From assembly GCA_026397175.1 (NCBI GenBank), contig JAPLVK010000013.1:8232-72231 (forward strand): DNA of 64,000 nt, written 5' to 3'. The notes under the pieces are model-generated. The model ran no database searches, was not told the DNA's origin, and saw only the letters and a list, made by a program, of their open reading frames with translations. Shown here piece by piece: positions 197 to 42,773 of the stretch; within the stretch, counting starts at the first letter, position 1; each line of letters begins with the position of its first letter. The DNA comes from Candidatus Berkelbacteria bacterium (GTDB lineage Bacteria; Patescibacteriota; UBA1384; DTJR01). A program made the position numbers and the translations under genes.

Positions 197-385
197 TTAT
201 GAAGGTCTGGTTGGCTCCGGTGGTACCGGTGGACTTCCAATGTCTGATGACTGCGAAGTACCCGAGCTATCATCAATCACGGCGCTATCAGCGTTATCTG
301 TGTTGCTGGATGATTTTCCAAATTGGCAGCCGCTAAATGCAAATAATACAGCGACGATACCTAGGGCAAACATTGTTTTCTTCAT
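197..385 (-). CDS. small secreted lipoprotein (signal peptide plus lipobox FSGC)
   Basis: N-terminus MKKTMFALGIVAVLFAFSGCQ is a typical lipoprotein signal; Ser/Pro-rich mature part. Confidence 0.45.
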   Translation of the reverse strand: MKKTMFALGIVAVLFAFSGCQFGKSSSNTDNADSAVIDDSSGTSQSSDIGSPPVPPEPTRPS

Positions 386-5189: not shown

Positions 5190-6017
5190 TTAAGATAACA
5201 ATCTTTTCTTCTTTGGTAAGAAATTGTCTTTTGATACTACAGATCGACCGAGGCGCCTTTCCAACTTCTTTCTTGCTCCACCGGCAATATCACCGCCGGC
5301 TTTGGCATCAGATTTTAATTTATTCAGACCTTTAGAGTTTTCATTGCGATGAATTTCTGAAGTGGAACGCTCGCCAAGCATTGTAAATATCAACTCAAAA
5401 TCATCCATGTGGTCGCGCAGATTTTCTCTTTTAATCCCTTTAATAAGTTTTTTGTACTGGCTTGGCGTAACGCCAAATGCGGCCTTCGAGATTTCGGCGG
5501 TAAGGATTGCATAATCTTTTTGTTGTTTTGCGCCGCGTTTATCCCATTCATCTGTTAATTCCTCGCGAATAACAATGCCACGCATTCGGTTTTCGATCCA
5601 ATCGTCAGGATAACCCTTGGCGCGATATAGCGCTCGTGTTCGCTTCATGCCAAGTTCAGGATCGTCAATTTCCTGAACTCGTTCATAACCAACTTTTGCC
5701 AACCAGCGTTTAAATGGCTCTGCCTTTGGCGAAGTAATTGATTGAATAATGCGAAAGAGTCCTTCGGTATTAGAACAAAGCATCTTTTGTTTGCCACCTT
5801 CCGTTGGTACTTCAAGGGTATGTACAATTCGTACCCACCCTTTAGTTAGTTCTACATCACGCTGTTTCATGCGTTGGATATACTGCTTTGGATCGCTTGA
5901 ATCAATAAGTGCCAGAACAACATCTTCTACCACAAACCACCACTCGTTTTTGTAGATTGCTCGCCGAATTTCTTTTTTCTGAAAAATTGCAATTTTGTTT
6001 ATAAATTTCTCTGTCAT
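5190..6017 (-). CDS. Bro-N domain protein (DinD / phage antirepressor-like)
   Basis: N-terminus IFQKKEIRRAIYKNEWWFVVEDVVLAL resembles Bro-N; basic C-terminal half; sits next to a tRNA. Confidence 0.6.
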   Translation of the reverse strand: MTEKFINKIAIFQKKEIRRAIYKNEWWFVVEDVVLALIDSSDPKQYIQRMKQRDVELTKGWVRIVHTLEVPTEGGKQKMLCSNTEGLFRIIQSITSPKAEPFKRWLAKVGYERVQEIDDPELGMKRTRALYRAKGYPDDWIENRMRGIVIREELTDEWDKRGAKQQKDYAILTAEISKAAFGVTPSQYKKLIKGIKRENLRDHMDDFELIFTMLGERSTSEIHRNENSKGLNKLKSDAKAGGDIAGGARKKLERRLGRSVVSKDNFLPKKKRLLS

Positions 6018-6120: not shown

Positions 6121-6195
6121 TGGTGGTCGCTACTGGATTTGAACCAGTGACATTACGGATGTGAACCGTACGCTCTACCGCTGAGCTAAGCGACC
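6121..6195 (-). tRNA. tRNA-Val (anticodon CAC), CCA encoded
   Basis: reverse complement GGTCGCTTAGCTCAGCGGTAGAGCG...TTCACAT loop...GGTTCAAATCC...AGCGACCACCA folds as a cloverleaf. Confidence 0.85.
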
Positions 6196-6242
6196 ATAGT
6201 GATTATATTTACACTTTATAATTATTACAGAACTTACGCAAT

Positions 6243-6422
6243 GTAGACCAGACCTTCTTGTTGATAACACACTTAAAGTATGGGCTACGAAGTCCCTGTA
6301 GTCCAAGCTTCAGCTTGTTGGATAGCACGATAAATCGTGGGTTACAGATTCTCTGTAGCTCAAGCTTCAGCATGTTTTCTCACACTAAAGCGTGGGCTAC
6401 GAAATCCGAAATCATGGGCTAC
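6243..6422. repeat. BIME/REP-like array, locus A: alternating 16-nt palindromic arms (gtagtccaagctttag / ctaaagtgtggactac variants) with short linkers
   Basis: arms and linkers read directly; same family as 12407-12555; both start with ccagacctt. Confidence 0.7.
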
Positions 6423-6724
6423 ATTTAACCATCGCATTGACAGCTTACGCTCATCTTGAAGGCGAGAACAAGAAAAATTCTAAATATCAGGATTTTGGAA
6501 CTTCAAACGAAGATAGCGCTGCAGAGTTTGAAGTGTTCGAGGAAAAGCAAGCCATAATGCGAGATATCACCAAGGACTTAAAAAAACTTAAAGCGGCTCT
6601 TTTGAGGATTAAAAATAAAACTTATGGAAAGTGCCTGAAGTGTAAAAGTACCATCGAGATTGGACGGCTGAAAGTTTATCCGGAGGCCTCATATTGCGCG
6701 ACACATGGTAAAGAAGAAAAGTAA
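6392..6724 (+). CDS. DksA/TraR-family C4 zinc-finger protein; the start is uncertain (ORF-track GTG start lies inside the repeat array; alternatives TTG at 6437 or ATG at 6557)
   Basis: C-terminus YGKCLKCKSTIEIGRLKVYPEASYCATH is a DksA/TraR C4 finger. Confidence 0.5.
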   Translation: MGYEIRNHGLHLTIALTAYAHLEGENKKNSKYQDFGTSNEDSAAEFEVFEEKQAIMRDITKDLKKLKAALLRIKNKTYGKCLKCKSTIEIGRLKVYPEASYCATHGKEEK

Positions 6725-9634: not shown

Positions 9635-12406
9635 ATGAAAAATATAAAAATTACCGGTGCCAGAACACACAACCTTAAAAATATTTCTCTTGAAATTCCA
9701 AAAGAAAAAATTTCGGTCATAAGCGGAATTTCCGGCTCGGGAAAATCTTCTTTGGCGTTTGACACAATTTTTGCCGAAGGCCAAAGACGATATGTCGAAA
9801 ATTTATCTTCGTACGCAAAACAAATTATCGGCGTTATCGAAAAACCGGATGTGGATTCGATAGAAGGCATACCACCGGCTATTTCGATTGACCAAAAAAG
9901 TATTGCTCGCTCACCTCGCTCTACTGTCGGGACACTGACTGAAGGATATGATTATTTACGACTGATATATTCAAGGTTTGGGGAGGTTAGATGTCCATCT
10001 TGCCGAAAAGTAATTTCGGGCGGCTCAAGCAAAAAGGTAGTGGAGGACTCATTGGAATTTATTGAGTCCGTTGATTCAAAAGATAAAAATGTAAGAATTT
10101 TTGCTCCAATGATAAGTGGACTAAAAGGCCAGCATCAATTGGTTTTGGATAAACTCTCAAAGTCCAATTTTAAAGCAATTCGGATTGATTCAAACATTTA
10201 TAAACCATTTGAGATTAAGAACCTGAAACTAGAACAATCCGACCCCCACTCGATAGGGGTCTGGACTTTGGATAAGGACTTTACAAAGATGTCAGTGGAA
10301 AACATAAAGTTAATCGAAAAAGCGATCCTGTTAGCCCTTGATCTGTCTTCGGACACAGTGAAAATTTGTGTGAACAATGAAGAGAAGGCATTTTCTAGCC
10401 ACCCCGGTTGTTTAAAATGTCAAATCAGTTTTCCGCCAATTCAGCCAAGATTGTTTTCATTTAATAGTCCTTATGGCGCATGTACTAAATGCCAAGGGCT
10501 TGGAGTAATTAAAAAAGTCATTCCGAATCTTGTAATCCCAAATGCTCGGCTAACCTTATCCGAAGGAGCAATTAGGCCATGGGCTCGGCTGGCCGGACAA
10601 AACAGCTGGCTCACAAAAACCCTAAATTCATTAGCGCAAAGGAATAATTTTTCTCTAGACACGCCTGTTATGAATTTGGGTGAAAAGGCGTTAAGAGCGA
10701 TTTTGTATGGTGATGCTGAATTTGAAGGAGTGATTAAAAACTTAGAAAAAAAATACAAGGAAACGGACTCCGAATATCTAAGAGGCGAGATAGAGCAGTA
10801 CATGGTCGAGAAAATGTGCGAAAAATGCGAAGGAAAGCGCTTAAACGAATTTGCGCTTTCCGTAACATTTCTGAATAAAAAAATATATGAGCTTTCCGAT
10901 ATGGAAGCCCAAAAGTTAGTGGACTTTATTGAAAAAAATAAGGATAATCTTCCAAACGAATCAAATCAGGCCGTAAACGAGCTTTTAAAACGACTTAAGA
11001 ACTTAATCTCGGTAGGTTTAAGTTATCTTGCTCTGTCCAGAAGTAGCGAAACGCTCTCCGGCGGAGAAGCGCAAAGAATTCGCCTCGGTGTTCAGTTTGA
11101 CTCGTTTTTAAGTGGTGTTTTATATGTTTTGGATGAACCGACAATCGGTCTTCATAATCTTGATACCGAAAAAATGATACATGCCTTTAAAAAATTAAGA
11201 GATGAAGGAAACACGGTAATAATTGTCGAGCACGATAAAACTATCTTGGAATCAGCTGACTATATTTTTGATATGGGTCCGGGCGCTGGAAAAGATGGCG
11301 GTTATCTTATAGCCCAAGGATCACCCGAGGAAATAAAGAAAAATTCAAAATCGGTTACCGGCCCATATTTATCCGGCGAAAAAAATATTCCATACCCTAA
11401 AAAAAGAAGAAAAAAATCGGACTCATTTTTAAAAATAAGCGGCGCACGACATAATAATCTCAAAAATATTGATGTTGAAATTCCGCTTGGACAATTTGTC
11501 GCCGTTTCCGGTGTCTCGGGTTCTGGAAAATCATCTTTAATTTATGATGTACTGGCCAAGGCGCTAGCGCAAAAGTTAAATCGTTCGGAAGAGGAGCCGG
11601 GTGAATTTAAGGAAATTCTTGGGTTTGAAAATTTAAATAAAGTAATTAAAATTGATCAAACCCCGATCGGTAGAACTCCAAGAAGTAATTTGGCAACTTA
11701 TACAGGGATATTTACTCCGATCAGAGAACTTTTTGCCGCAACCAAAGAGGCAAAAAATCATGCTTTTAACGCCAGCCAGTTTAGCTTTAACCTAAAAGGT
11801 GGAAGATGCGAAACATGTCGTGGTGATGGAGTTATTAAAATCGAAATGTATTTTATGCCCGATGTTTATGTTCCTTGTGAGGAATGCAACGGAGAACGGT
11901 ATAATCGTGAAACATTGGATGTTAAGTTTCAAGGAAAGTCGGTTTCGCAGGTTTTAAAAATGAGCGTTGATGAGGCCTCGGATTTTTTTAATGACTTTCC
12001 TGATGTGATGGAGAAAATCACGGTTTTGCAAAAAGTCGGTCTTGGATATTTGCCGCTTGGCCAAAGCGCGACAACGCTGTCAGGTGGAGAAGCGCAAAGA
12101 ATAAAATTGGCCGCAGAGCTCTCGAGACCGTCAACCGGAAAAACCATATATATTTTAGATGAGCCGACAACGGGGTTACACTTTGAAGATATTGGGAAGC
12201 TTTTGGAAATTTTGCAAGAACTTGTCGAAAGGGGAAATACTGTTTTAATAATTGAACACAATACCGATGTTATTAAAAACGCCGATTGGGTTATAGATAT
12301 GGGACCGGAAGGCGGCGAAAAAGGCGGCGAAATTATTGCCGAAGGGACTCCCGAACAAATTGCCAAAAAACCCAAATCAACCATCGGAAAATTCTTAAAA
12401 TTTTAA
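9635..12406 (+). CDS. uvrA: excinuclease ABC subunit A
   Basis: two ABC modules ([28 protein letters not shown] twice) plus zinc-finger cysteines. Confidence 0.97.
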
Positions 12407-12555
12407 CCAGACCTTTTGTAGTCCACGATTGATCTCACTCTCTTCATGTAGCTCAAGCTTTAGCTTGTTTTTTCACACTAAAGTGTGGGCTACAAAATCC
12501 CTGTAGTCCAAGCTTTAGCTTGTTTTACTCACACTAAAGTGTGGACTACAATCCC
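12407..12555. repeat. BIME/REP-like array, locus B: two full units of arm L, 15-nt linker, arm R, 9-nt linker
   Basis: gtagctcaagctttag cttgttttttcaca ctaaagtgtgggctac aaaatccct gtagtccaagctttag cttgttttactcaca ctaaagtgtggactac. Confidence 0.75.
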
Positions 12556-12590
12556 TTGATTTAGAATAGGTTTTATGGTATAAATTAATC

Positions 12591-12951
12591 GCCTAACTAT
12601 TTGAAGTAGCCACCCCCAACGGGGAGGAAAGTCCGGGCGCCGCAGAGTAGAGTACCCATGATAAATGGGCTGCCGTGAGGCAAGGGAATAGTACAACAGA
12701 AAATATACCGCTTGAGCCCTTCGGGGCGAAATCCTGAACGCAGTCGAAGGATTGTTTTCAGGTCGAGCAAGGTTGAAATCGTGCGGTAAGAGCGCACGCT
12801 TTCGGCGGGAAACCGCCGTCTGTGAAAACCCTATTTGGCGCAAGTTGAGTGGACCAATATCATCAATAATGATTACTCGTCAGATGACCGCGGTCTCAAC
12901 GCATAGATAGATGGCTACATAAACAGAACCCGGCTTATCGGATAGTTAGGC
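12591..12951 (+). ncRNA. rnpB: RNase P RNA, bacterial type A
   Basis: GGAGGAAAGTCCGGGC (P4 5' strand), ACAGAAAATATACCGC, GTGCGGTAAGAGCGCAC, ACAGAACCCGGCTTATCGG (P4 3' strand); P1 pairing gcctaactat/atagttaggc. Confidence 0.85.
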
Positions 12952-12962
12952 AAAATTAGTTC

Positions 12963-13063: not shown

Positions 13064-13606
13064 ATGCGGATTAATAAGTATCTCGCAGCTTGTGGAATAG
13101 GAAGCCGAAGATCGGTAGAGGGATTAGTAAGATCCGGCAAAATTTTTGTGGACTCAAAAAAAATCACCGATTTATCTTTTCAGGTTGATCCCGAAAAAGA
13201 TCAAGTTGAGTATAAGGGCCAAAAACTTCATATCGAAAATAAGGTTTATTATTTGGTAAATAAACCAAAGGACTTCGTTTCAACCGTTAAGGATATTAAT
13301 GTGAGACATAAAGTTACTTCGCTTGTGCCGAAAGACCAAAGGGTTTTCCCTGTGGGACGGCTCGACAAGGACTCGAGCGGGCTGATAATTTTAACGAATG
13401 ATGGAGAGTTTGCCAAAAATTATTTTAGACCGAAATTTGAGATCGAAAAGGAATATATTGTCGAGGTTAAAAGGCCAACCGAAAATTTAACCGAAATGCT
13501 CGATCAAGCGGTGCGATTTTTTAGATGCGGAATTGTTTTAGATGGTACGAGAACCAAGCCGGCATTTATTAGGGTAATTTCGCAGGATTTAAAAAAGATC
13601 AGTTAG
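13064..13606 (+). CDS. RsuA/RluB-family pseudouridine synthase with S4 domain and catalytic GRLDKDSSG; apparently C-terminally truncated
   Basis: S4 motif, catalytic Asp motif; the ORF stops before the conserved EGRNRQIRRM region. Confidence 0.65.
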   Translation: MRINKYLAACGIGSRRSVEGLVRSGKIFVDSKKITDLSFQVDPEKDQVEYKGQKLHIENKVYYLVNKPKDFVSTVKDINVRHKVTSLVPKDQRVFPVGRLDKDSSGLIILTNDGEFAKNYFRPKFEIEKEYIVEVKRPTENLTEMLDQAVRFFRCGIVLDGTRTKPAFIRVISQDLKKIS

Positions 13607-42148: not shown

Positions 42149-42773
42149 AAAAATTAATCCAATCGTTTTTCGACTGGGGCTTTATAACAACTGGAAAAGC
42201 AGATGGTTTGCCAAGGGAAGTGATTTTGCTAGATTTTTGCTTGAGGATTATAATATCCGCGAGGCAATTAAATCGAAGATGGGGCCACAAGCCGCAATCT
42301 CTGAAATAATAATAGAAAGAGGAATCGGCCGACTGGATATTACTATTTTTACCGCCAGACCAGGTGTCTTAATCGGAAGGGGTGGAAAACAGCTCGAGAC
42401 ATTACGGGAGGAATTGGTTAAAATGATTGGGAAAAAGTTTAAACTTGAAATTGTAGAAGTTAAAAAGGCCGACTTAAACGCGTCTGTTGTTGCACAAACC
42501 ATCGGAATGCAAATATCAAAAAGAATGCCGTTTAGAAGGGCAGTAAAACAGGCATTGCAAAGATCGGTTGATGCGGGAGCAAAAGGAGTGATGATCAGAG
42601 TGGCCGGACGCCTTGATGGAGCAGAAATCTCGAGATCAGAGTCATACAAAAATGGTTCCATACCACTTTCAACTTTAAGGGCAGATATTGATTTCGCTGC
42701 ATATGGAGCAAAAACAACTTTCGGAATCATTGGAATAAAGGTCTGGATTAATCTTGGAGAAAAGGCGAAATAA
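42141..42773 (+). CDS. rpsC: 30S ribosomal protein S3
   Basis: conserved S3 sequence. Confidence 0.95.

What the first reader, a model, noticed from the sequence alone, without database searches (positions are those of the whole stretch)
6243..6422. BIME/REP-like palindromic repeat array next to tRNA-Val (locus A)
There are two 16-nt arms that are imperfect reverse complements (gtagtccaagctttag and ctaaagtgtggactac; each contains a tight palindrome, caagct..agcttg or cacact..agtgtg). They alternate in orientation, separated by 9- and 14/15-nt linkers. This is the architecture of enterobacterial BIMEs, not of CRISPR. The same family recurs at 12407-12555 and both copies begin with ccagacctt. 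The array overlaps the annotated start of the DksA/TraR-like gene.
Basis: seen in the sequence. Interest (0 to 1): 0.55.

Follow-up and report, generated by a model that had tools for sequence, protein, structure and literature searches.

The report
REP/BIME palindrome clusters in Berkelbacteria
The two repeat arrays are clusters of small GTAG-tagged hairpin repeats (REPs) of the kind that a domesticated tyrosine transposase (RAYT) spreads; this is a known type of element, found here in a tiny-genome candidate-phyla-radiation (CPR) bacterium, and the same repeat recurs in many uncultivated phyla.

Summary
Window 6243-6422 and 12407-12555 are arrays of a 20-nt unit, GTAG + 2 nt + 5-bp stem (CAxyC/Gy'x'TG) + TTYA loop. 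The units alternate in orientation, with gaps of 6-8 nt (hairpins facing) and 9 nt (tags facing).

- **Copies in the window.** A covariance model built only from other genomes finds 9 clear copies and 3 remnants, all in these two loci.
- **Not a segmental duplication.** Only the arrays are similar between the two loci; the flanks are not.
- **Wide distribution.** The exact 20-mer occurs in at least 118 stretches of genomes from many lineages, including Berkelbacteria, Saccharibacteria, KSB1, Lentisphaerae and Phycisphaerae. It is absent from 2.9 million viral contigs.
- **Hairpin under selection.** The two middle stem positions covary: 114 of 144 are complementary, against 31 expected.
- **Cognate enzyme.** All 11 distinct Y1-transposase loci examined, three of them in Berkelbacteria, are flanked by these repeats. 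The four proteins scanned pass NCBI's RAYT model. For the one searched against PDB sequences, the only match is E. coli TnpA-REP.

Two details fail. There is no enrichment near tRNA genes. The overlap with the DksA/TraR start comes from a 76-nt deletion in this assembly.

No RAYT lies in the window, and the rest of the source genome could not be read. Verdict: a new member of a known kind, of moderate interest.

The parts
6243..6262 (+). Decayed REP (GTAG-AC-CAGAC-CTTC...), containing the shared CCAGACCTT
   Evidence: R1 match 6241-6262, 11.4 bits, E 0.53. An intact CAGAC-type REP is seen in L021.
6268..6288 (-). Z-type REP with a 1-nt insertion (GTAGCCCATACTTTAAGTGTG)
   Evidence: R1 match 21.6 bits, E 7e-4; sequence read.
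6298..6317 (+). Y-type REP GTAGTCCAAGCTTCAGCTTG
   Evidence: 35.3 bits. Logan contig L120 begins exactly here.
6326..6345 (-). Z-variant REP GTAACCCACGATTTATCGTG (tag GTAA; stem CACGA/TCGTG, compensated on both sides)
   Evidence: 23.9 bits. The same subtype flanks RAYT genes in L125 and L129.
6355..6374 (+). Y-type REP with one stem mismatch (GTAGCTCAAGCTTCAGCATG)
   Evidence: 27.4 bits.
6381..6400 (-). Z-type REP GTAGCCCACGCTTTAGTGTG (one G-T pair)
   Evidence: 27.7 bits.
6410..6422 (-). Half REP remnant (GTAGCCCATGATT)
   Evidence: family D3; 10 bits, E 1.3.
12407..12437 (+). CCAGACCTTTT followed by a decayed REP, GTAGTCCACGATTGATCTCA, starting 12 nt after the uvrA stop
   Evidence: 12416-12433, 9.4 bits, E 1.9.
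12448..12467 (+). Y-type REP GTAGCTCAAGCTTTAGCTTG, followed by TTTTTT
   Evidence: 36.4 bits; terminator-like hit.
12474..12493 (-). Z-type REP GTAGCCCACACTTTAGTGTG
   Evidence: 32.2 bits.
12503..12522 (+). Y-type REP GTAGTCCAAGCTTTAGCTTG
   Evidence: 36.2 bits.
12530..12549 (-). Z-type REP GTAGTCCACACTTTAGTGTG
   Evidence: 30.6 bits. The Y+Z doublet 12503-12549 folds as ssDNA at -10.5 kcal/mol, z -4.1.
6121..6195 (-). Flank of locus A: tRNA-Val(CAC)
   Evidence: ARAGORN; Rfam tRNA 71 bits.
6448..6724 (+). Flank of locus A: DksA/TraR-type zinc-finger gene, 5'-truncated in this window by a 76-nt deletion at 6447/6448
9635..12406 (+). Flank of locus B: uvrA
   Evidence: UvrA_DNA-bind and UvrA_inter Pfam hits.
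12593..12953 (+). Flank of locus B: RNase P RNA, bacterial class A
   Evidence: Rfam RF00010, 180.4 bits.

Best explanation
Both loci are BIME-like clusters of a GTAG-tagged REP family, sitting in intergenic DNA of a Candidatus Berkelbacteria (CPR/Patescibacteria) genome.

**Anatomy (shown).** Each REP is a 20-nt module: an unpaired GTAG tag, two pyrimidines, and a 5-bp hairpin. The hairpin's outer pairs (C-G, A-T), its loop-closing C-G pair and its TTYA loop are conserved. Its middle two pairs vary freely as long as they stay complementary. Two subtypes, Y and Z, sit in inverted pairs. Either pairing can fold back as one longer imperfect hairpin, which is the REPIN-like doublet form.

**Mechanism (inferred from the E. 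coli TnpA-REP/RAYT paradigm, not tested here).** A single-copy HUH/Y1 enzyme (RAYT) recognises the hairpin and the tag on single-stranded DNA. It cuts and rejoins next to them, which seeds copies in other intergenic sites. Local tandem duplication of the ~55-nt Y-spacer-Z-linker block then builds the arrays. The linkers are conserved within this genome (RAARTCCCT) but not between genomes, which fits local duplication.

**Status of these two arrays.** The window holds only the non-autonomous partner. Any cognate RAYT would lie elsewhere in the genome, or may have been lost. Effects on the host, such as 3'-end hairpins after uvrA or weak termination, are possible but unproven.
For: - **Anatomy and statistics in the window:**
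- **GTAG anchor is specific:** 287 hairpin hits follow GTAG, against 5-14 for six control tetramers.
- **Hairpin under selection:** in an anchored test that does not require pairing, 114 of 144 middle dinucleotides are complementary against 30.9 expected. There are nine complementary types.
- **Family is dispersed:** at least 118 stretches in the genome collection, with roughly 9 expected by chance from my own estimate, and 0 in viral contigs.
- **Extragenic:** only 12%, 3% and 3% of REPs lie inside ORFs of at least 150 aa, although such ORFs cover 73-82% of the bases.
- **Spacing matches CPR relatives:** the window's gaps (hairpin-facing 6-8 nt, tag-facing 9 nt) match the CPR pattern (5-7 and 8-11 nt).
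- **RAYT link:** Y1_Tnp ORFs were found next to the repeats. NCBIfam NF047646, 'REP-associated tyrosine transposase', scores 86-100 bits against a cutoff of 80, while the IS200 model scores 21-26 against 55. For the one protein searched against PDB sequences (P0070), the only match is 4ER8, E. coli TnpA-REP, at E 1.8e-9. The HUH histidines and the catalytic tyrosine are invariant.
- **All RAYT loci are REP-flanked:** all 11 distinct RAYT loci read carry this hairpin family on their flanks and none inside the gene. These include Berkelbacteria L122, L125 and L137.
- **Subtype match:** L129 carries the window's three REP subtypes around its RAYT.
- **Source organism:** the window's IF-3 is 100% identical to an NCBI protein of a Candidatus Berkelbacteria MAG.
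Against: - No RAYT gene lies in the 64-kb window; phmmer over all window ORFs of at least 90 aa found none.
- The rest of the source genome could not be read, so copy number and RAYT presence in this organism are unknown.
- Only two clusters occur in 64 kb.
- Transposition or cleavage activity is inferred from E. coli work, not shown for this lineage.
- The stems are only 5 bp, at the short end of described REPs.
- Hairpin covariation would fit an RNA-level function as well as an ssDNA one.
Confidence: 0.85

Rival explanations
1. The arrays are host regulatory hairpins, unrelated to any transposase. They would act as intrinsic terminators or 3'-end stabilisers after uvrA, or as insulators between the divergent tRNA-Val and dksA-like genes, and would have been amplified only by local tandem duplication.
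For: Two terminator-like hits fall on the + strand, where the Y hairpin is followed by a T-run, at 12454-12467 and 12509-12522. Locus B starts right after the uvrA stop. In L099 a single REP sits 7 nt after the uvrA stop of another Berkelbacteria MAG. The RNA fold of 12400-12560 has z -6.
Against: The same 20-mer is dispersed in many unrelated genomic contexts and phyla. It lies on both strands relative to neighbouring genes. In Lentisphaerae and KSB1 it is not followed by T-runs. Locus A lies between divergent genes, where no terminator is needed. The repeats bracket RAYT genes in 11 of 11 loci. The two readings can coexist: known REPs are co-opted in this way.
Confidence: 0.08
2. The arrays encode a structured small RNA, or are binding sites for an RNA-binding protein that recognises the UUYA loop (or URAA on the other strand).
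For: Compensatory stem changes and a strictly conserved loop. Occasional G-T pairs, for example at 6381-6400.
Against: No Rfam family matches, even at E up to 10. Units occur in both orientations within one array, so no single strand is favoured. No promoter or terminator frames a discrete RNA. The tight link to an ssDNA-processing HUH enzyme explains the same conservation.
Confidence: 0.05
3. A degenerate or miniature CRISPR array, or a simple segmental duplication between the two loci.
For: Regular spacing of about 55 nt. The two loci share 78-91% identity over 52-112 nt.
Against: Units are inverted, not direct. The gaps are 6-9 nt and are themselves repeated. Nothing cas-like came up in the gene annotations seen near either locus. 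The similarity stops at the array borders. The family is present in at least 118 other stretches.
Confidence: 0.01

Closest known systems
GTAG-tagged REPs (Di Nocera et al. 2013, PMC3733652), especially families GTAG-1/-2, which carry an unpaired dinucleotide between tag and stem
   Same: An unpaired 5' GTAG tag, then a dinucleotide, then a short stem-loop. Sub-families differ by complementary stem changes. Units form head-head and tail-tail dimers, preferentially heterodimers, and clusters. They are extragenic and flank RAYT genes (for the paper; here).
   Different: The stem is only 5 bp; most described stems are 6-9 bp, with 5 bp noted only in Thauera. The loop is a strictly conserved 4-nt TTYA, whereas many described loops fit the 2-3 nt consensus TY or CMA. 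The hosts are CPR, KSB1, Lentisphaerae and other uncultivated lineages, which were not examined in that survey. Some sister lineages replace GTAG with GGAG or AGAG.
Enterobacterial BIMEs (clusters of Y and Z REPs in alternating orientation)
   Same: Two REP subtypes alternate in orientation, with two alternating classes of linker. They are intergenic and tandemly reiterated.
   Different: The REPs are about 20 nt rather than about 35 nt. From my own recollection, E. coli BIME-1 carries an IHF site in its long linker; the 6-9 nt linkers here are too short for that. There is no sequence similarity to E. coli REPs.
REPIN-RAYT systems (Bertels & Rainey 2011, PMC3116915; E. coli TnpA-REP structure 4ER8, PMC3479197)
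   Same: Inverted REP doublets can fold into one long hairpin. The associated protein passes the RAYT equivalog model. For the one protein searched, the only solved relative is TnpA-REP. The HUH motif and catalytic tyrosine are conserved.
   Different: The motif signature is NHYH / WW or WH / YIH[HQ]NP. This does not match exactly any subclass signature tabulated by Quentin et al. 2018 (PMC6006769); the nearest are 2.6 and 2.8. The same REP sequence is shared by RAYTs only 37% identical, from different phyla, whereas REPIN populations are usually described as lineage-specific.
IS200/IS605 transposon ends and their miniature derivatives (PATEs)
   Same: Small sub-terminal hairpins recognised by a Y1 HUH enzyme on ssDNA.
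   Different: The associated proteins fall far below the IS200 model cutoff (21-26 against 55 bits). The repeats are not paired as left and right ends around cargo; they are reiterated in arrays.

Membership tests
GTAG-tagged REP | Short (about 20-40 nt) palindromic unit able to form a stem-loop | tested here: met
   A 5-bp stem with a 4-nt loop in every unit. The anchored covariation test gives 114 of 144 complementary against 30.9 expected.
GTAG-tagged REP | Unpaired GTAG (GTRG) tag at one end | tested here: met
   8 of the 9 clear window copies carry GTAG and one carries GTAA. The GTAG anchor gives 287 hits against 5-14 for control tetramers.
GTAG-tagged REP | Many dispersed copies within one genome | tested here: inconclusive
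   Two clusters (9 copies plus 3 remnants) lie in the 64-kb window, and the rest of the source genome is not available. Relatives hold many: Berkelbacteria Bin_65_7 has at least 8 separate contigs with exact hits, and Lentisphaerae and KSB1 MAGs have dozens.
GTAG-tagged REP | Extragenic location | tested here: met
   Both window arrays are intergenic once the 76-nt deletion is accounted for. Family-wide, 3-12% of REPs lie inside long ORFs, which cover 73-82% of the bases.
REP-RAYT system | A RAYT (Y1 HUH) gene flanked by the same REPs | tested here: met
   Met in relatives: 11 of 11 distinct RAYT loci, including three Berkelbacteria MAGs. NF047646 scores above its cutoff for the four proteins scanned.
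REP-RAYT system | A RAYT present in the same genome as these arrays | not testable with these tools
   None in the window. Four look-ups of candidate RAYTs landed in other samples.
REP-RAYT system | The RAYT cleaves or binds the REP as ssDNA | not testable with these tools
   A biochemical property. Only the catalytic residues were checked; they are invariant.
BIME | REPs of two types in regularly alternating orientation, separated by linker motifs | tested here: met
   The order is Y, Z, Y, Z on alternating strands, with gaps of 6-8 nt and 9 nt. The 9-nt linkers follow a consensus of roughly RAARTCCCT.
BIME | Host-factor sites in the linkers (IHF, gyrase), as in E. coli | not tested
   The linkers are only 6-9 nt. 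No binding data exist and no motif scan was done.
CRISPR array | Direct repeats separated by unique spacers of similar length; cas genes nearby | tested here: not met
   The units are inverted, the gaps are 6-9 nt and repeated, and nothing cas-like came up in the gene annotations seen near either locus.
IS200/IS605 ends or PATE | Associated transposase belongs to the IS200 TnpA family | tested here: not met
   NF033573 scores 21-26 bits against a cutoff of 55. No IS608 or ISDra2 TnpA structure matched at E up to 0.01.

The most novel reading that the evidence does not exclude
One RAYT-REP lineage, defined by the hairpin CAxyC-TTYA-Gy'x'TG, is shared almost unchanged across several phyla. It occurs in CPR (Berkelbacteria, Saccharibacteria), KSB1, Lentisphaerae, Phycisphaerae, Verrucomicrobiota and Hydrogenedentota. 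The enzymes, by contrast, have diverged to 37% identity, and the tag switches between lineages (GTAG, GGAG, AGAG). That would make it either an exceptionally ancient, vertically kept DNA-protein recognition pair, or a REP system that moves between phyla, possibly between CPR epibionts and their hosts. Either case runs against the usual picture of lineage-specific, vertically inherited REPINs.
Probability: 0.2. Interest if true: 0.6.

Novelty: new member of a known kind. Interest (0 to 1): 0.35.

Why it matters
REP/RAYT systems have been studied almost entirely in Proteobacteria, with some work in Cyanobacteria and Bacteroidetes. No paper in the searched library mentions RAYTs or REPINs together with CPR/Patescibacteria.

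Finding them in a Berkelbacteria genome shows that highly reduced, gene-dense genomes still carry this kind of selfish or domesticated repeat system.

There is also a practical consequence. These arrays appear to break short-read assemblies: one contig starts at the first base of a REP, and most RAYT contigs are only 1-3 kb. They also mislead gene callers, as with the false DksA start here.

The near-identical hairpin across distant phyla, together with lineage-specific tag switches, gives a compact natural data set. It could show which REP features a RAYT reads: the loop, the closing pairs and the tag, but not the stem interior.

Tried and rejected
- **Rfam.** The gathering search over the whole window and E up to 10 on both arrays found no family beyond tRNA and RNase P RNA.
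- **Literature by sequence.** Full-text search for the repeat sequence returned only chance primer matches.
- **Recurrent neighbour gene.** All-vs-all clustering of 2,062 ORFs from the repeat-bearing loci gave only a four-member cluster, which turned out to be the RAYT.
- **Stable-RNA enrichment.** Rejected: 0 of 134 clusters lie within 150 nt of a tRNA, and about 0.8% of bases lie that close. The two window cases are best read as coincidence, or as longer and more tolerant intergenic regions.
- **The source genome's own RAYT.**
  - The listing of cluster members gives no Logan run accessions.
  - Look-ups of P0046, P0071, P0047 and P0051 fell in unrelated runs.
  - P0074 belongs to another Berkelbacteria MAG, GCA_026397135.1.
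  - The NCBI contig of the window is not in the look-up index.
- **Viral contigs.** No hits, so there is no sign of a phage vector.
- **A caveat.** Alignment A2 was selected for perfect stems, so its '100% paired' figure is circular. The fair test is the anchored one.
- **A recalled seed.** The E. coli RayT sequence used as a seed was recalled from memory. Its hits were verified independently with Pfam, NCBIfam and PDB.

Full report
**1. What is in the sequence**

Locus A (6243-6422) lies between tRNA-Val(CAC) (6121-6195, minus strand) and a DksA/TraR-type gene. Locus B (12407-12555) lies between the uvrA stop codon (12404-12406) and the RNase P RNA gene (12593-12953).

Both loci are built from one 20-nt module: GTAG, two pyrimidines, a 5-bp stem, a 4-nt loop TT(T/C)A, and the complementary stem. 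Two subtypes alternate on opposite strands:
- Y has the stem CAAGC/GCTTG.
- Z has the stem CACAC/GTGTG.
- One Z copy (6326-6345) has the stem CACGA/TCGTG, changed on both sides so that pairing is kept.

The gaps are 6-8 nt where the hairpins face each other and 9 nt where the tags face each other. This gives a 55-57 nt period.

The two 20-mers each match three times with up to 3 mismatches, against 0.00 expected.

Covariance model R1 was built from 50 REPs of other CPR genomes, none taken from the window. Run with filters off, it recovers nine copies at E from 4.5e-8 to 7e-4 and three remnants. All lie in these two loci, with nothing convincing elsewhere in the 64 kb.

**2. Not a local duplication, not CRISPR**

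Similarity between the two loci is confined to the arrays (6268-6407 versus 12447-12554). The flanks are unrelated.

The units are inverted, and the gaps are short and themselves repeated. Nothing cas-like came up in the gene annotations seen near either locus.

**3. The family elsewhere**

By my own estimate, about 9 would be expected by chance.

Many hits fall in the same genome. Hosts include Berkelbacteria, Saccharibacteria, other Patescibacteria, KSB1 (some labelled 'Deferribacteres'), Lentisphaerae, Phycisphaerae, Verrucomicrobiota and Hydrogenedentota, among others. A few single hits (Polaromonas, Acidobacteriota, Gemmataceae) may be chance.

The same scan of 2.9 million viral contigs found nothing.

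In these loci the partner arm has a different stem but the same frame, for example CAGCC-TGAA-GGCTG in KSB1 and CACGC-TAAA-GCGTG in Saccharibacteria. A Phycisphaerae locus (L109) carries the window's Y+Z doublet at 92% identity over 51 nt.

Three tests characterise the family:
- **The tag is specific.** Across all loci, GTAG followed at the right distance by a perfect 5-bp hairpin occurs 287 times, against 5-14 for six control tetramers. 279 of the 287 loops are TTTA or TTCA.
- **The stem covaries.** An anchored test fixes only the conserved positions. Excluding the subtype used for the scan, 114 of 144 middle dinucleotides are perfectly complementary, against 30.9 expected. Nine complementary types occur. 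So the hairpin itself is under selection, while its interior sequence is free.
- **The repeats are extragenic.** Only 12% (CPR), 3% (KSB1) and 3% (Lentisphaerae) lie inside ORFs of at least 150 aa, which cover 73-82% of the bases.

Cluster architecture differs by lineage:

| Lineage | Arrangement | Gaps |
|---|---|---|
| CPR genomes and the window | Inverted pairs | Hairpins facing 5-8 nt; tags facing 8-11 nt |
| KSB1 | Mostly isolated inverted pairs | Hairpins facing 5-7 nt |
| Lentisphaerae | Head-to-tail tandems | 6 nt |

**4. The associated enzyme**

All-vs-all clustering of ORFs from the repeat-bearing loci gave one small cross-phylum cluster. A phmmer search seeded with the E. coli RayT sequence hit that same cluster. 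The seed was recalled from memory, so the hits were verified independently:
- Pfam finds Y1_Tnp.
- NCBIfam NF047646, 'REP-associated tyrosine transposase', scores 86-100 bits against a cutoff of 80. The IS200 model scores only 21-26 against 55.
- For the one protein searched against PDB sequences (P0070), the only match is 4ER8, E. coli TnpA-REP, at E 1.8e-9.
- The two HUH histidines and the tyrosine aligned with E. coli Y115 are invariant.

A homologue search gave 92 relatives, several named by NCBI as Berkelbacteria or Patescibacteria proteins. Most sit on contigs of only 1-3 kb.

Every one of the 11 distinct RAYT loci I read is flanked by arrays of this hairpin family, right up to the gene ends, with none inside the gene:
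- L010, L032, L069 and L112 came from the repeat scan.
- L122, L125, L127, L128, L129, L130 and L137 came from protein look-ups.

Three of these loci are Berkelbacteria MAGs. L125 has 11 REPs upstream and 4 downstream. L129 carries exactly the window's three subtypes (CAAGC, CACAC, CACGA).

In L128 and L137 the tag is GGAG, and in L130 it is mostly AGAG, with the hairpin unchanged. The CPR and KSB1 enzymes are only 37% identical.

**5. The source organism**

The window's IF-3 is 100% identical to an NCBI protein of a 'Candidatus Berkelbacteria bacterium' MAG, on a 75,179-nt contig. The same organism is present in six ERR153021xx-ERR153022xx runs.

I could not reach the rest of that genome, so its REP census and its RAYT remain untested. 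No Y1 transposase is encoded in the window.

**6. How it most likely works**

*Shown.* The anatomy, the covariation, the dispersal, the extragenic bias and the tight physical link to RAYT genes in relatives.

*Inferred from published work on E. coli TnpA-REP and on REPINs (PMC3479197, PMC8266576, PMC3116915).* The RAYT recognises the hairpin plus tag on single-stranded DNA and cuts and rejoins there, which disseminates the repeats. Arrays then grow by local duplication. The within-genome conservation of the 9-nt linker (GAAGTCCCT, AGATTCTCT, AAAATCCCT) fits this, because the linkers differ in other genomes.

Either kind of doublet can fold into a longer imperfect hairpin, at -10.5 and -10.2 kcal/mol as ssDNA.

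A secondary host role is possible for locus B, as a transcript 3' hairpin or weak terminator. There the Y hairpin is followed by a T-run. This is not a family-wide feature.

**7.

*Stable-RNA association.* It does not generalise: 0 of 134 clusters lie within 150 nt of a tRNA.

*Overlap with the DksA/TraR start.* The window lacks 76 nt after 6447 that otherwise identical contigs contain. Those 76 nt carry the true ATG and the codons for MIDAKFIAKQKKLIEEKI. The gene is called intact at 109 aa in five sequencing runs. The ORF starting at 6392 is a chance read-through into the array.

**8. Comparison with what is known**

The element fits the GTAG-REP super-family of Di Nocera et al. (PMC3733652). 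It has the unpaired tag, a dinucleotide before the stem as in their GTAG-1/-2 families, sub-families that differ by complementary changes, heterodimers and clusters. It has the BIME architecture.

It differs in five ways:
- a very short 5-bp stem;
- a fixed TTYA loop;
- hosts in uncultivated phyla, including CPR;
- a RAYT motif signature (NHYH / WW or WH / YIH[HQ]NP) that does not match exactly any subclass tabulated by Quentin et al.;
- near-identity of the REP across phyla.

No paper in the searched library mentions RAYT or REPIN together with CPR taxa.

**9. Verdict**

This is a new member of a known kind. Interest is moderate to low for the window itself. The cross-phylum conservation and the tag switching are the parts worth a specialist's attention.

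Noticed in passing
window 6447/6448: The window lacks 76 nt that are present in otherwise 100%-identical Logan contigs. The missing piece holds the real ATG and first 17 codons of the DksA/TraR-type gene, which is called intact at 109 aa in five sequencing runs. It is either an assembly error or a disrupting strain variant.
   Followed up: yes
window 13601 (ORF 13064-13606): A second deletion, of 88 nt relative to contig L121, lies inside the S4/pseudouridine-synthase gene and truncates it. That makes two gene-breaking deletions within about 11 kb of compared sequence, which suggests this assembly may hold more.
   Followed up: partly
L128 1297-2292; L137 9875-10670; L130 11-910: The RAYT genes in these loci are flanked by the same CAxyC-TTYA hairpins, but the tag is GGAG (L128, L137) or mostly AGAG (L130) instead of GTAG. 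The tag appears to switch with RAYT lineage while the hairpin stays fixed.
   Followed up: partly
L036, L085, L102, L045, L094 (Lentisphaerae MAGs): Here the same REP forms long head-to-tail tandem arrays with a 26-nt period. They are interleaved with a second repeated motif, GTACCTCGCTTGCAGGAGCAT. This architecture is quite unlike the inverted pairs of CPR and KSB1.
   Followed up: no
L099 3060-3079 (Berkelbacteria Bin_65_7): A single REP sits 7 nt after the uvrA stop, with RNase P RNA about 1 kb downstream. This is the same position as locus B in a genome only 67-72% identical at the DNA level. It is either an old insertion that has been retained or a recurrent target.
   Followed up: partly
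window 202-210(-), 6248-6256(+), 12407-12415(+), 42738-42746(-): CCAGACCTT occurs four times, against 0.18 expected. Two copies open the REP arrays and look like the left half of a decayed CAGAC-type REP. The other two lie in or next to coding sequence and are unexplained.
   Followed up: partly
L120 position 1 = window 6298; RAYT contigs: A short-read contig begins exactly at the first base of a REP, and most RAYT-bearing contigs are only 1-3 kb. These arrays seem to break metagenome assemblies, so RAYTs may be under-represented in CPR MAGs.
   Followed up: no
window 5190-6017 (-): The gene next to tRNA-Val encodes a Bro-N domain protein, a domain often carried by phages. Homologues in L017 and L022 also have a REP close by.
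   Followed up: no
L137 about 9940-10000: The Berkelbacteria LacPavin RAYT gene (P0074, 'partial') is interrupted by a run of N, a scaffold gap, right at its 5' end next to the REP array.
   Followed up: no
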